NCBI GenBank assembly: GCA_951406725.2
Contig: OX597815.1
Coordinates: 12,152,001 to 12,216,000 of the forward strand
Reading direction: 5' to 3'
Length of the DNA stretch: 64,000 nt
Source of the DNA: Octopus vulgaris
Taxonomy: Eukaryota
Numbering within the stretch: position 1 is the first letter of the stretch; every line of letters begins with the position of its first letter. The position numbers were made by a program, and so were the translations under genes. The notes below the pieces were generated by a model. It was not told the origin of the DNA. It worked only from the letters and a program-made list of their open reading frames with translations, and searched no databases. Below, piece after piece: positions 1,112 through 56,317 of the stretch.

Positions 1112-1185
<74 letters not shown>

Positions 1186-1855
1186 AAAGACCATTTACGG
1201 TATATTTGAAGTATTAATTTATAAAAATATGGTAAAGTAAAAGAATTCACTTTACCACACACCGAACTTTTCAGAAATAGCAGCCAATACTTCAAAAATA
1301 CCGTAAATGGTCTTTACATACCGAATACTGCTTGGTCGAATTTATTAACAATTAATTAATTCGACCCCTTTTTTGATAACAATATAATGCTTTCTCTCCA
1401 AGAATTTGAACTGCAGTTTTTACCTCTGTAGAAATGTAATGCTCTATGACTCACGTGGGTGCACAGGGAGAATAATAGATCTCATTCGTATTTTTGGATT
1501 CGCTAGTACTGGGTGTCTGGCATGGTTTGTCCGATGTTACAGATATCGGACGGGTATGTTTAATTCTTAGTATTTTCAAATCTAAATCAGAAGAAATCTC
1601 TGAGCTGATGAAGGAAAAGTGGCGTTTTACCCACAAATCCAGAAACAGACTGTCCTCGGGTATCGTATATGGATGTGATCTTTCATTGTTTTTCCCTTAT
1701 ACCTATGTGAGTTATTTTTCTGAGTATGCATTGTCTGGAGAATTTTATTTGCAGTTGAAGAAATAGCCAAATTTTTGGCTGCTATTTCTGAAAAGTTCGG
1801 TGTGTGGTAAAGTGAATTCTTTTACTTTACCATATTTTTATAAATTAATACTTCT
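1186..1855 (+). mobile_element. HHR-containing non-autonomous Penelope/retrozyme-like element (family H1) with inverted end duplication
   Basis: Unit 1286-1853 contains an HHR; about 1209-1288 is the reverse complement of about 1776-1853; flanked by (TA)n; homologues at 29680-30065 and 54748-55020. Confidence 0.75.
1599..1660 (+). ncRNA. Type I hammerhead ribozyme, intact core
   Basis: Stem I CTGAG/CTCGG; CTGATGA 1605-1611; stem II GGA..GTGG/CCAC..TCC; GAAA 1642-1645; stem III A-CAG-a-CTG-T; cleavage triplet GTC. Confidence 0.75.
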
Positions 1856-1890
<35 letters not shown>

Positions 1891-26253: not shown

Positions 26254-26627
26254 AGAGGGGACAAACAAGGACAGACAATGGGCTTAAGTCAATTACATCG
26301 ACCCCAGTGCTTAACTGGTACTTAATTTATCGACTCCGAAAGGATGAAAGGCAAAGTCGATCTCGGCGGAATTTGAACTCACAACGTAACGGTAGACGAA
26401 ATACCTATTTCTTTATTACCCACAAGGGGCTAAACACAGAGGGGACAAACAAGGACAGACATAGGTATTGAGTCGATTACATCGACTCCAGTGCGTAACT
26501 GGTACTTAATTTATCGACCCCGAAAGGATGAAAGGCAAAGTCGACCTCGGCGGAATTTGAACTCACAACGTAACGCAGACGAAATACCGTTAAGCATTTC
26601 GCCGGCGTGCTAACGATTCTGCCAGCT
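26254..26627 (-). mobile_element. Dimeric SINE family M
   Basis: Two tandem copies of reverse-complemented GCCTTTCATCCTTTCGGGGTCGATAAATTAAGTACCAG (Meta-domain-like) behind a tRNA-like head. Confidence 0.9.
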
Positions 26628-29049: not shown

Positions 29050-29679
29050 GCATATATATATGTATATAAATATGCATATACCGATGCATATGCACATACA
29101 TATGCATCTAAATATATAATAAGAATATGCATATAATTATATAAAATATATGCGTAATATCTAAATATATATATACTCGGTAATTTGGCACGATCGTTTC
29201 ACGCTACATCATTTTATTAAACATTGTAAGTATTACAATAGTTTTAAAATGTTAAGCACTCATCACCTATTTATAGAGGTTTTCCATCAATACATATACT
29301 TAATTTCATGTTAATTGATAACATTATAAAGAGGGTAGATATAAAGACAGAGATGTTGATTTGAATGTTAAGAATATTAAGGTATTAGAATTTATCTTCT
29401 GACTAAAGAATTTTCTTTAAGTCATTTTGAACTGCTAGAAAGTGGGGAGGAATATTCTGTTGAATGGAGACAAAAGAGATTTTCTATTTATAGAAATAGG
29501 TAGGGGTGAAATAAATGTCAGTTATTCCTGAAGAAATTAAAGTGGAAGGGGGATTATATTATCTTAGAGCTGTATCCTACTATTTGGCGATCAAATTTTG
29601 TATCAAGAAAACTAGTTTTCTAAAATCAGACTTTGTATTAAGAAAACAAGAAAACGTGGCTGGGTGAGGAGGAATACGA

Positions 29680-30065
29680 GATCTCATTCGTCTGTTTGAA
29701 TTCGGAAGTACTGGTCGTTAGATGTATGTTGTCTGATGACGCCTGGTCAGATAAGTTTGTTTAATTTTTACAGTACACTCAAATTTAAAATCTTGAATTA
29801 CTGTACTGAAAAGGAGGATAATAGAGTGGAAATGTGAGTTTACATTTTTCACATCAAAATAACTCAGAAACATGTATACCGGTAATCAAGCCGGGTGGAT
29901 TCGTTATTTTTCTCTCTTGACTTGCGTGAGTTATTGAGTATTGCTGTCTGGGACATTTACTTATGGTAGTGAAATAGTTTTAAATCCTATTTCTAAATTT
30001 CGGTATGTGGTGAAGCAAATTTTTGCTGAATACTAATTATAATTACACTCATAATTATAAATTTT
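29680..30065 (+). mobile_element. Diverged relative of HHR family H1
   Basis: Collinear blocks AGATCTCATTCGT, AGTACTGG, TGAGTTATT, CTATTTCT, TTCGGT.TGTGGT.AAG shared with 1477-1815; HHR remnant at 29798-29885. Confidence 0.65.
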
Positions 30066-33367: not shown

Positions 33368-34030
33368 AATGACATCCTATATTGATAATCATTTATAATC
33401 AACTCTTTTGCTCTTCAGAGATATAAAATTTGAATTTTGTATAACATATCGAATGGTAGTTTTTATATAAATTTGAGGTAATACTATAAAATGGTGTCTG
33501 TTTGAAATATAAAATAAAAATTAAAATTTACTGCTTTCGATGAGAGTCTTTAAATCGAAATATACTTCCTTGGTTAGTCTTCTGTAATAATCGATAATAT
33601 TCATATGTAAAATCCGTGATATTGTCTTGTATTCCAAATAAATTTCATATACTTAAATAATATAGAATAATGGAATCCTGTATTGATAAGCATTCATAAA
33701 TAACTCTTCTTCTCTTTAGTAATATGAAATGTGAAATTTGTAAATACGTTAGCATGAGAATCTTGAAATTCATATGTCTTCTTAGCAATTCTTCTGTAGC
33801 AATCCATAATACTTATGTATAAAATATATATTTGTAATACAATACAATATAAGGAATTTTACATATGAATATTATGGATTATTACAGAAGACTAACAAAG
33901 GAAATATATTTAAAGACTCTGATCAAAAGCAGTGATTTTTAATTTTTGATTTATATTTCAAACAAACACCATTTTATAGTATTACTTCATAATACTACCA
34001 TTCGATATGTTATACAAAATTCAAATTCAT
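33368..34030. repeat. Diverged AT-rich inverted repeat with internal direct duplication
   Basis: 33420-33640 versus 33829-34030 inverted (e.g. AATTTGAATTTTGTATAACATATCGAATGGTAGT); 33668-33825 resembles parts of 33368-33612. Confidence 0.8.
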
Positions 34031-39790: not shown

Positions 39791-40209
39791 ACACACACAC
39801 ACACACACCCATATATATATATATATGTGTGTGTGTGTGTAGTGTGATAAGAAGTTGAGTTCTATTTCATCCGTTCCTTTGTCGGGTTCCAAAGCTCTAT
39901 TTCTAATAAAGATTCTTCATATTACATTGTTAGAATTTTTCGAATATGAAAATACTTCAAGTGTACGGTATGCTATGAGCATTCAAGAAGCTATACAAGG
40001 TCAAAAGATAATTAAAGATAGAGAAGAAAATATCTTAAAAGTTTAAAAAGAATTTATTCCATGCATGCGATCGTTTTGAACAATAATATTAACATGTAAA
40101 TAAGATTGTAAAAACATTAGAAATTAATTTAATTGTAATTAAATTACATACTACTGTTCTCAGTGCGAAAAAAGAAAACTTTAAAAAATACATCAGAAAA
40201 TATATTTAT

Positions 40210-40424
40210 ATTTCTTTACTGCCCACAAGGGGCTAAACATAGAGGGGACAAACAAGGACAGACAAAGGGATTAAGTTGATTACATCAACTCCAGTGCGTA
40301 ACTGGTACTTAATTTATCGACCCCGAAAGGATGAAAGGCAAAGTCGAACTCAGAACGTAACGACAGACGAAATACCGCTAAGCATTTCGCCCAGCGCGCT
40401 GACGCTTCTGCCAGCTCGCCGCCT
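40210..40424 (-). mobile_element. SINE family M monomer
   Basis: Head AGGCGGCGAGCTGGCAGAA, Meta-like domain, tail CCCCTTGTGGGCAGTAAAGAAA. Confidence 0.9.
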
Positions 40425-40429
40425 AAAAA

Positions 40430-40816
40430 TCTCTCTATATATAAACGGCAGTTTGTCTGTGCGTGTTTCTGTGTGTCTGTTTTCTCGTACCCTCACCCTG
40501 ACCACGGCTTTCAACCGATTCTGATGAAACTTGACACACGCATAGCCCAATGTCATAATTCAAAACTAACGCAGCGAAAATTTTGAAAAGTTCCCCCAGT
40601 TCTGAAAAAAATCGATAAATTCGACATGGGGTCGAGAATAAAAAAAAACAAACCACAGACTGTCTAGGGGACGCAACTCAACCTTTTTTTACTCTCAAAA
40701 AACAATTTACCATAATTTTTTTTCCATTTTTTTGCTATTTTTTGGCTATAACTCTCTAAAGATGCTTTATAGTTATTTCCCTTACAAACCTGAGCAACGC
40801 CGGGCGATACTGCTAG
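40430..40816 (+). mobile_element. Non-autonomous Helitron
   Basis: A|TCTCTCTATATATAAA 5' end; subterminal hairpin CCTGAGCAACGCCGGG 40789-40804; CTAG|T 3' end; no TSD; CAACCGATTCTGATGAAACTTG core. Confidence 0.85.
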
Positions 40817-41300
40817 TATATTATATTGTTACTGAAGACTAGACGGAATGAATGTCACATATTTTCGGATATACATAATATCCTTATAAATGATAAAGGC
40901 ATGCTAAGATAGTGTTATTAAGTCTCGTTGTGTATGAACTAAAACTGATGCGGCAAACGGTAATTTGAATATGTAAGTGAAATATATCATGTGACATTCT
41001 CTCCATCTAGTCTTCAATAACGATATAATATTTTTCTGATCTATTTTTTTCATGCATTCTTTTTTCCACAATGAAGAGAACAGGAATATGCAATCAATTT
41101 ATAATAATTAAGTTAATTTCGAACGTTGTTACCATGTTATTTACATGTACATATAAACGTTCGAAACGATCGCATACATGGATTCGCATACATGGATTAA
41201 ATTCTGTTTAGAATTTTAACACCTTTTCTTCTCCATCTTTAATTGTTTGTTGAGCTTGTATAGGACATATGTTCTATAAATACTCATAACACACATTATA

Positions 41301-41351
<51 letters not shown>

Positions 41352-41352
41352 A

Positions 41353-41721
41353 AAATGAAAGAATGGAGTTGAACGTCGATTTAACAAAATTCCTTTCTTC
41401 TCGACATATGTTTCGAAGGCTGCATATTCCTAATTTCCAAGGAATAAGGGGTGCATTATGCCGCTTTCTCATCAGGAAAAACAAGGAACTTATGTCAGCA
41501 TCAAGATGAACAAAAGCTCTTAGATGACTGCCCACACGGAGCTCAACTCGTTCAACTCCATTCCTTCATTTATTTGTATTTAAAAAAACACACAAATTTC
41601 CACACGAAAGCACGTGATCTCTGCCCTTGGCATGTAGCTTCAACCGTGTTTTTCTGACGTGAATTTGCTACCCAGGTATCGGTTAACCGAATTATCCATA
41701 CTAAGATAATTCATTCAACTA

Positions 41722-41722
<1 letters not shown>
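41353..41722 (-). mobile_element. HHR element family H4 with inverted end duplication, embedded in (TA)n
   Basis: 41353-41375 is the reverse complement of 41549-41571; (TA)n on both flanks. Confidence 0.7.
41398..41480 (-). ncRNA. Type I hammerhead ribozyme, intact core
   Basis: Minus strand TTTTC-CTGATGA-GAAAGC..TATTCCT/AGGAATA..GCCTTC-GAAA-CATATG-TC-GAGAA; palindromic stem III ACATATGT. Confidence 0.78.
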
Positions 41723-41802
<80 letters not shown>

Positions 41803-54712: not shown

Positions 54713-54747
54713 ATCAACATTTTTATATATATATATATATATATATA

Positions 54748-55020
54748 TTGTTATGAAAGGGGTCAATTAATTAATTATTAATAAATTGACCAAGCAGTAT
54801 TCGTATTAAAGACCATTTACGGTATATTTGATATTAATTTATAAAAATATGGTAAAGTAAAGAATTCATTACCACAAGCTTTAGAAATAGCAGCCAAAAT
54901 TTGGCTATTTCTTCAACTGCAAATAAAGTATCAGACAATGCATACTCAGAAAAATAACTCACATAGGAATAAGGAAAACAATCACATACAGTCTGTTTCT
55001 GGATTTGGTAAAACGCCACT
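54748..55020 (-). mobile_element. Circularly permuted copy of HHR family H1
   Basis: Minus strand matches 1617-1853 and then continues directly into 1290-1382. Confidence 0.8.
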
Positions 55021-55037
55021 TACGTCAAAATTTCTTA

Positions 55038-55084
<47 letters not shown>

Positions 55085-55109
55085 TTTATAAATTAATACT
55101 TTTTATAAA

Positions 55110-55745: not shown

Positions 55746-55858
55746 AAAATATGCATGCATATATACGTATATGTATATATACAGGTATACACACATATGT
55801 ATGTATATACGCATATATTTATATATAATTTATATATATACACACACACACACACACA

Positions 55859-55894
<36 letters not shown>

Positions 55895-55904
55895 TCATAT
55901 AATC

Positions 55905-56317
55905 GGCGGCGAGCTGGCAGACACGTTGGCCCGCCGAGCGAAATGCTTAGTGGTATTTCGTCTGCGTTACGTTGTGAGTTCAAATTCCGCCGAGGTCGAC
56001 TTTGCCTTTCATCCTTTCGGGGTCGATAAATTAAGTACCAGTAACGCACTGGGGTCGATGTAATCGACTTAATACCTATGTCTGTCCTTGTTTGTCCCCT
56101 CTGTGTTTAGCCCCTTGTGGGTAATAAAGAAACAGGTATTTCGTCTGTCGTTACGTTCTAAGTTCAAATTCCGCCGAGGTCGACTTTCCTTTTCATCCTT
56201 TCGGGGTCGGTAAATAAAGTACCAGTTTCGCACTGGGGTCGATGCAATCGACGTAATCCCTTTGTTTGTCCTCGTTTATTCCCTTTGTGTTTAGCCCCTT
56301 GTGGGCAATTAAGAAAT
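55905..56317 (+). mobile_element. Dimeric SINE family M
   Basis: GGCGGCGAGCTGGCAGA head, GAGTTCAAATTCC B box, two Meta-like domains. Confidence 0.9.

What the first reader, a model, noticed from the sequence alone, without database searches (positions are those of the whole stretch)
1286..1853. HHR family H1 is circularly permuted between copies
Seen: the unit of about 568 bp starts and ends with AATACTTC. Both the inverted stub at 1186-1288 and the separate copy at 54748-55020(-) read straight through the end-to-start junction (...TTTATAAATTAATA(CTT)C-AAATATACCGTAAATGGTCTTT...). Inference: the template was a tandem multimer or a circular RNA cut by the intact HHR at 1599-1660, as described for retrozymes. 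Tandem PLE pLTRs are the alternative.
Basis: partly seen in the sequence, partly recalled or inferred. Interest (0 to 1): 0.8.

Follow-up and report, generated by a model that had tools for sequence, protein, structure and literature searches.

The report
Hammerhead RNA ring pasted by Penelope
This is one copy of a 561-letter, protein-free repeat with a predicted self-cutting RNA motif, a known kind of jumping element; a close variant assembles as a closed 567-letter loop in two data sets that are likely RNA, so it was likely copied into AT repeats from an RNA ring by a borrowed Penelope-type enzyme.

Summary
Observation confirmed. The unit is 1286-1854: a 561-nt monomer plus 8 nt. The inverted arm (1183-1287) and the second copy (54744-55021) both read through its end-to-start junction. 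It has no long ORF, carries a type I hammerhead with a weak palindromic stem III, and folds strongly on the ribozyme strand (z -10). Public runs show a high-copy family, with the junction present in DNA-type contigs. In two runs from two studies, guessed to be RNA, the element is one 597-nt contig that closes on itself with period 567 nt, which leaves no room for a reverse transcriptase. Back-to-back arms, a one-sided tail and (TA)n targets are Penelope-like hallmarks. Not shown: that those runs are RNA, circle versus linear multimer, cleavage, and the enzyme. Rfam did not find the hammerhead. Variant sites lean to A/G (13 vs 2), as RNA editing would give. The scan noted many similar families elsewhere in this genome; none matched this sequence. 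New member of a known kind.

The parts
1286..1854 (+). Arm A: one 561-nt non-coding monomer plus 8 nt of the next turn; its 3' end abuts (TA)n
   Evidence: longest ATG frame 52 aa
1183..1287 (-). Arm B: inverted 5'-truncated copy (unit 1775-1854, then 1294-1318) crossing the junction; ends 25 nt past the end of arm A; shares 2 nt (1286-1287) with arm A
   Evidence: 80 of 80 and 24 of 25
1286..1293 (+). First AATACTTC (terminal redundancy)
1847..1854 (+). Second AATACTTC; in the region of one recurrent 3' end (1845-1854)
   Evidence: (TA)n loose ends behind 1845 in X1 and at the place equal to 1850 in X14
1599..1660 (+). Type I hammerhead motif: stem I 1599-1604/1655-1660, core 1605-1611, extra A1612, long stem II 1613-1640, extra A1641, GAAA 1642-1645, palindromic stem III 1645-1653, predicted cut after 1654
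   Evidence: 1604-1680 identical in a depth-13,543 contig of X6; no Rfam match
1409..1756 (+). Predicted rod: 1409-1491 pairs with 1667-1756, enclosing the ribozyme and so holding the two cut ends near each other
   Evidence: predicted fold
1759..1831 (+). Predicted hairpins 1759-1789 and 1806-1831 and helix 1795-1805/1316-1326 around the junction; about 1770-1826 is shared with related families; candidate RT-binding region (inference)
1113..1182 (.). Left (TA)n target flank with a short (GT)n
1856..1882 (.). Right (TA)n target flank
54744..55021 (-). Copy 2, main arm: unit 1617 through the junction to 1386, then (TA)n; deletion-rich, ribozyme broken
   Evidence: the same 3' end behind 1386 in 3 contigs of X1
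55080..55101 (+). Copy 2, short opposite arm ending at unit position 1853, between (TA)n tracts
   Evidence: 22 of 22

Best explanation
This is a 561-nt non-coding, hammerhead-bearing repeat unit inserted as two back-to-back arms into (TA)n, a retrozyme-type element likely reverse-transcribed by a Penelope-like RT/GIY-YIG protein acting in trans, from an RNA that likely is a ring of about 567 nt. Steps: (1) More-than-unit copies are transcribed. Inferred; the runs are only guessed to be RNA. (2) The hammerhead cuts after 1654, probably as a dimer because stem III is palindromic and weak. Predicted. (3) The folded monomer, its ends held close by the 1409-1491/1667-1756 rod, is ligated by a host RtcB-type ligase. 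Inferred from mussel and axolotl retrozymes. (4) A PLE protein nicks both strands of (TA)n and primes cDNA at internal sites near the junction (about 1845-1854 for one arm; 1318 or 1386 for the other). The ends are seen; the enzyme is inferred. (5) The two cDNAs run back over the junction and join head to head, giving permuted, terminally redundant copies. The product is seen. The structured RNA is probably also A-to-I edited, with some edits fixed in new copies. Inferred.
For: Both window insertions have opposite arms with 3' ends facing out into (TA)n, and both cross the junction. Joint 1846->1286 'goes back 561' in X1 (2 contigs, side 21) and X3 (1 contig, side 39); variant read-throughs 1824->1294 and 1818->1298; X3 record 17 bridges 1386/1387; so the links close a cycle in genomic-type data. 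X9 and X17 (studies P6, P8) each hold one 597-nt contig with joint 1287->1184 and 463 letters between: period 567, and 597 = 567 + 30. A terminal 30-mer repeat is the Logan authors' test for circular contigs (PMC12424806, passages). These runs hold 55% and 51% of the unit's words, about 98% identity. Only 8 and 19 records lie on the 104-nt stretch, against 156 in DNA-type X6, and no (TA)n exit at the junction is listed for them, whereas X14 has one. No long ORF. Circular fold -169.7 kcal/mol, z -10.2, 0 of 60 shuffles as good; antisense -115.7. Stem III hairpin +2.1 versus self-duplex -6.9 kcal/mol, like dimer-type PLE hammerheads with an extra base after A9 (PMC4209133). Inverted 5' copy, one-sided 30-40 bp tail and (TA)n preference are PLE traits (PMC8557442). 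A purified PLE protein cuts and extends both strands at AT-rich DNA and starts at two internal RNA sites (PMC11167929). Of 23 variable places, 13 are A/G and 2 are C/T on the sense strand (p 0.003), and 11 of the 13 follow a T (p 0.0003).
Against: The RNA label of X9, X14 and X17 is a guess; the tool warns that DNA can be in them and that the two closed records may be this DNA's source. A k-mer cycle cannot tell a circle from a tandem or terminally redundant linear RNA, and the assembler simplifies graphs. X14 gave no closed contig (1 of 3). I could not see the 463 inner letters, so the hammerhead of the closed variant is unverified, and its length is 6 nt more than the window's monomer. The joint was not listed in X2 or X6 (2 of 4). 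Rfam found no hammerhead even at E 10. The extra A1641 is unusual. The active fold is not the predicted minimum (-9.0 vs -13.2; stem III pair probability 0.009). No tandem with two whole ribozymes and no PLE ORF lies in the window. In PMC11167929 the PLE hammerhead was dispensable for insertion in vitro, and no RNA-seq reads ended at its cut site. Among wobble-tolerated paired sites alone the A/G excess is not significant (6 of 7, p 0.15), and the variable places pool four runs and related subfamilies.
Confidence: 0.63

Rival explanations
1. Same non-autonomous PLE derivative, but the template is a linear multimeric or partial-tandem transcript of genomic arrays. No ring is needed, and the hammerhead is a weak or idle pLTR remnant.
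For: A transcript of identical tandem units gives the same closed contig (inference from the k-mer method). PLE RT uses uncut RNA in vitro (PMC11167929). Eight of nine Xenopus retrozyme dimers did not cleave in vitro (preprint). Stem III is weak. Non-autonomous PLEs with head-to-tail insertions are known (PMC8557442).
Against: The closed contigs have no listed exit into flanks. The strand-specific rod fold and the conserved core fit a processed RNA. Arm A is one turn plus 8 nt, as an RT meeting its own start on a ring would give (single case, post hoc). Tested animal retrozymes all gave circles (PMC7229834).
Confidence: 0.25
2. The pieces are only the pseudo-LTR and 3' end of a longer autonomous PLE with an RT-EN ORF; the overlap is a pLTR.
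For: The architecture is PLE-like. Related elements share about 1770-1826 and then diverge, and some loose ends run into unseen sequence; only 24 of 209 loose ends were shown.
Against: Arm A itself runs from junction to junction with no ORF. The 567-nt cycle closes without room for one. All 30 bins are covered in all 4 runs and the links close.
Confidence: 0.07
3. A satellite spread at the DNA level; the closed contigs come from DNA reads of tandem arrays and no RNA step is involved now.
For: No listed run is on record as RNA (a blank, not evidence on expression). A shallow DNA library could collapse a repeat into one cycle.
Against: Dispersed two-armed insertions with recurrent ends in (TA)n, a strand-specific fold and a strand-biased A/G pattern point to reverse transcription. 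DNA-type runs shatter into 264-740 records on the unit.
Confidence: 0.05

Closest known systems
Metazoan non-LTR retrozymes (Cervera and de la Pena 2020, PMC7229834; review PMC7761336; Li, Clavereau and Pollet, bioRxiv 10.64898/2026.07.22.740005)
   Same: Non-coding unit with one type I hammerhead, weak helix III, GC under 50% (34.8%), high copy number, strongly self-paired, permuted more-than-unit copies, likely PLE-mobilised.
   Different: 561-567 nt is longer than the 170-400 nt elements with proven circles, though inside Li's 51-972 bp range. In this window it is dispersed two-armed insertions, not a tandem with two whole ribozymes. Long stem II flanked by two extra A's. Circle and cleavage not shown experimentally.
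[quoted passage not shown]
   Same: Inverted 5'-truncated copy next to a direct copy, a one-sided tail, (TA)n targets, a dimer-type hammerhead with an extra base after A9.
   Different: No RT or GIY-YIG ORF. End offsets are 25-28 nt (copy 1) and about 94 nt (copy 2) rather than a fixed 30-40 bp. Naiads share the (TA)n target but lack canonical hammerheads.
Plant LTR retrozymes (as described in PMC7229834 and the 2026 preprint)
   Same: Non-coding hammerhead elements with circular RNAs of similar size.
   Different: They have type III hammerheads, LTRs, PBS/PPT, 4-bp TSDs and Gypsy partners. Here the hammerhead is type I and the ends are PLE-like.

Membership tests
Metazoan non-LTR retrozyme | Type I hammerhead motif in the unit | tested here: met
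   All core boxes and stems by pattern scan; extra A1612 and A1641; no Rfam match
Metazoan non-LTR retrozyme | No protein-coding capacity; GC under 50% | tested here: met
   Longest ATG frames 52 aa (+) and 34 aa (-); GC 34.8%
Metazoan non-LTR retrozyme | Head-to-tail repeats with at least two whole ribozymes | tested here: inconclusive
   Not in the window (1.01 units plus a stub). End-to-start joint in 2 of 4 runs.
Metazoan non-LTR retrozyme | Unit size in the reported range | tested here: met
   561-567 nt: inside 51-972 bp, above the 170-400 nt of proven circles
Metazoan non-LTR retrozyme | Highly self-paired RNA | tested here: met
   Predicted only: z -10.2, 0 of 60 shuffles
Metazoan non-LTR retrozyme | Expressed as monomeric circular RNA | tested here: inconclusive
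   Closed 567-nt contig in 2 of 3 runs guessed to be RNA; cannot separate circle from multimer
Metazoan non-LTR retrozyme | Self-cleavage at the hammerhead | not testable with these tools
   Needs in vitro transcription
Metazoan non-LTR retrozyme | TSD longer than 4 bp when present | not testable with these tools
   The target is (TA)n, so a TSD cannot be read
Autonomous EN+ Penelope-like element | RT plus GIY-YIG ORF | tested here: not met
   the 567-nt cycle has no room for it
Autonomous EN+ Penelope-like element | Inverted 5'-truncated copy beside the direct copy | tested here: met
   Both window insertions
Autonomous EN+ Penelope-like element | 30-40 bp tail on one end | tested here: inconclusive
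   Offset 25-28 nt in copy 1 and about 94 nt in copy 2
Autonomous EN+ Penelope-like element | AT-rich or (TA)n target | tested here: met
Plant LTR retrozyme | Type III hammerhead in LTRs, with PBS and PPT | tested here: not met
   Type I topology; PBS and PPT were not searched
Viroid-like or HDV-like infectious circRNA | Ribozymes in both polarities, not genome-encoded | tested here: not met
   Only a + strand motif in the unit; high-copy in DNA-type runs

The most novel reading that the evidence does not exclude
One dominant 567-nt circular RNA is the live master of this family. It is A-to-I edited, and a Penelope-type RT dimer copies it from both nicked DNA strands at two internal start sites, writing the edits into the genome. 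The genomic copies would then be a readable record of circRNA-to-DNA retrotransposition and of heritable RNA editing, and would give a system for testing the long-proposed circular intermediate of Penelope-like elements.
Probability: 0.35. Interest if true: 0.72.

Novelty: new member of a known kind. Interest (0 to 1): 0.43.

Why it matters
A circular RNA template for PLEs and animal retrozymes has been proposed since 2014 (PMC4209133, PMC7229834); the 2026 preprint says the mechanism remains to be worked out. This family offers both ends of the chain: PLE-shaped genomic insertions and a closed unit-length contig in two putative transcriptomes, with a defined cut site for primers. My searches for retrozyme + cephalopod, octopus + Penelope + hammerhead and hammerhead + viroid-like + circular RNA + octopus listed no paper on such an element, judged from titles and abstract starts, and from passages for PMC8557442. 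The supplement of PMC7229834 could not be read and may list one. The class itself is known, and the scan has noted many sister families in this genome.

Tried and rejected
Whole-genome mapping of copy ends was not possible: no genome is held. Run search: no RNA holder listed on record. Rfam: 0 matches at gathering score in the window. At E up to 10 on 1180-1860 there were 8 matches, none a hammerhead; the miRNA-family hits reflect the arm A/arm B inverted repeat and were rejected. Exact-pattern scans found nothing in metagenome contigs, viral contigs or prokaryote genomes, as expected for an animal repeat. The weak hit at 29661-29714 (57 nt, 79%) was not followed up. A hammerhead-like pattern at 33418(-) has a 1-bp stem II and was rejected. 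Local folding of 1585-1680 alone is no better than shuffles (z 0.9). The 19-nt deletion in copy 2 starts at the predicted cut base, but it is 1 of 17 gaps and is kept only as a hint. Depth ratios between the shared and the post-junction part (8.9 X6, 14.3 X14, 1.7 X9, 3.8 X17) were not used as evidence, because contig depth and edge effects distort them. A search on Penelope + twin priming gave one unrelated review.

Full report
Observation. The 8-mer AATACTTC lies at 1286-1293 and 1847-1854, so the direct unit is 569 bp, a 561-nt monomer plus 8 nt. The stub at 1183-1287 on the minus strand equals 1775-1854 at 80 of 80 and continues into 1294-1318 at 24 of 25; chance is excluded. The copy at 54744-55021(-) starts at unit position 1617, crosses the junction and stops at 1386 before (TA)n, with 271 matches, 5 mismatches and 17 gaps. 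A 22-nt opposite arm at 55080-55101 equals 1832-1853. Both insertions are therefore two arms back to back, with 3' ends facing outward into (TA)n. The window is animal-like, microsatellite-rich DNA. Earlier scan notes call the genome an octopus; I did not check that label.

The ribozyme. The motif at 1599-1660 has a 6-bp stem I, core CUGAUGA (1605-1611), an extra A, a long stem II (1613-1640), another extra A, GAAA, and a palindromic stem III, with the predicted cut after C1654. Stem III costs +2.1 kcal/mol as a hairpin and gains -6.9 as a self-duplex, so the motif is predicted to need a dimer. An extra base after A9 and a palindromic helix III are features of PLE hammerheads (PMC4209133, parts 1-2 of 4 read). 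The stretch 1604-1680 is identical in a very deep contig of run X6, and no variant is listed at either extra A. Against: Rfam finds no hammerhead, and the active fold is not the predicted minimum. In copy 2 the ribozyme is broken.

The unit. It has no ATG frame over 52 aa on either strand of the circularised monomer. Folded as a circle it gives -169.7 kcal/mol, z -10.2, with 0 of 60 shuffles as good; the antisense strand gives -115.7 and the linear sense form -176.3. The fold is thus strand-specific but does not by itself favour a ring. A rod pairs 1409-1491 with 1667-1756 and would hold the two cut ends together.

Other copies. Twenty of 24 listed runs, from 8 studies, hold the unit or part of it. 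I laid 4 DNA-type or untyped runs on 1286-1854: 264-740 records each, all 30 bins covered. The joint 1846->1286 appears in X1 (2 contigs) and X3 (1 contig, 39 letters on the short side), but not in X2 or X6. Two variant forms also read across the junction. X3 record 17 bridges 1386/1387. Loose (TA)n ends lie behind 1386 (3 contigs) and 1845 (1 contig); 24 of 209 loose ends were shown. The ends seen in the window therefore recur.

The key result. I laid X6 and 3 of the 9 runs guessed to be RNA on the junction-spanning stub 1184-1287. X9 and X17, from different studies, each hold one 597-nt contig that returns from 1287 to 1184 with 463 letters between; the listed pieces have no differing letter over the stub. 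The period is 567 nt and the surplus is 30 nt, which is how the Logan authors recognise circular contigs (PMC12424806, passages). The two runs share 55% and 51% of the unit's words, about 98% identity. Limits: RNA is a guess; the tool notes the records may be this DNA's source; the inner letters were not visible; X14 gave no closed contig; and a tandem or terminally redundant linear RNA gives the same cycle.

Sign of an RNA stage. Of 23 variable places listed, 13 are A/G and 2 are C/T on the ribozyme strand (p 0.003; 10 vs 2 below 1770, p 0.017), and 11 of the 13 follow a T (p 0.0003). This matches ADAR preferences as I recall them; I read no paper on the point (one search was a listing only). 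Selection for G-U-tolerant pairs could contribute: for paired sites alone p is 0.15.

Mechanism. PLE insertions typically have an inverted 5'-truncated copy and a 30-40 bp tail at one end, and Naiads prefer (TA)n (PMC8557442, 12 of 18 passages). A purified PLE protein cuts and extends both strands of AT-rich DNA and starts at two internal RNA sites whose spacing makes the tail (PMC11167929, parts 1-2 of 4). This explains two arms with offset ends: 25-28 nt in copy 1, about 94 nt in copy 2. Coral, mussel and axolotl retrozymes form circles, likely through RtcB (PMC7229834: abstract, Results parts 1-2 of 3, Discussion; supplement unreadable). Animal retrozymes are argued to be non-autonomous pLTR derivatives, with units of 51-972 bp (bioRxiv 10.64898/2026.07.22.740005, parts 1-3 of 5; review PMC7761336, passages). 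I put the full model with a ring at 0.63, a linear multimer at 0.25, a pLTR of a longer element at 0.07 and a DNA-only satellite at 0.05.

Membership and novelty. It works like a PLE insertion but is not an autonomous PLE, because it has no ORF. It meets the retrozyme features I could test; tandem arrangement and circular expression are inconclusive and cleavage is untested. Earlier scan notes describe many hammerhead families of 353-536 nt in this genome with the same two-armed reading. These are unchecked AI notes and not independent support; none matched this sequence. In the 16 notes shown I saw no mention of a closed contig in RNA-type runs, and a word search for one found none. Verdict: new member of a known kind, interest 0.43.

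Noticed in passing
window 41345-41740 (-): A second hammerhead-bearing element between (TA)n tracts, with no BLAST match to this unit: core at 41475, long stem II, palindromic stem III, long stem I.
   Followed up: partly
window 54744-55021 (-): Copy 2 has 16 small deletions but only 5 substitutions. One of its variant ends also appears in a contig of X3 (loose end behind 1374), so not all of it is assembly error. The largest deletion (19 nt) starts at the predicted cut base.
   Followed up: partly
window 1770-1826: Related families share this hairpin stretch and diverge on both sides (loose ends). It may be the RT-binding signal and a handle on the autonomous partner.
   Followed up: no
window 1363, 1462, 1562, 1742: The window copy carries minority letters here (other letter at 80% or more of the depth in all four runs) and is 6 nt shorter than the closed variant, so it is probably not the master copy.
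   Followed up: partly
window 39991-40211 and 41023-41263: Two inverted copies (74%) of another repeat; the one beside the second hammerhead element carries a short motif like that element's stem III.
   Followed up: no
window 55844-56284, 26254-26627, 40211-40480 and others: An abundant short interspersed repeat family unrelated to this finding.
   Followed up: no
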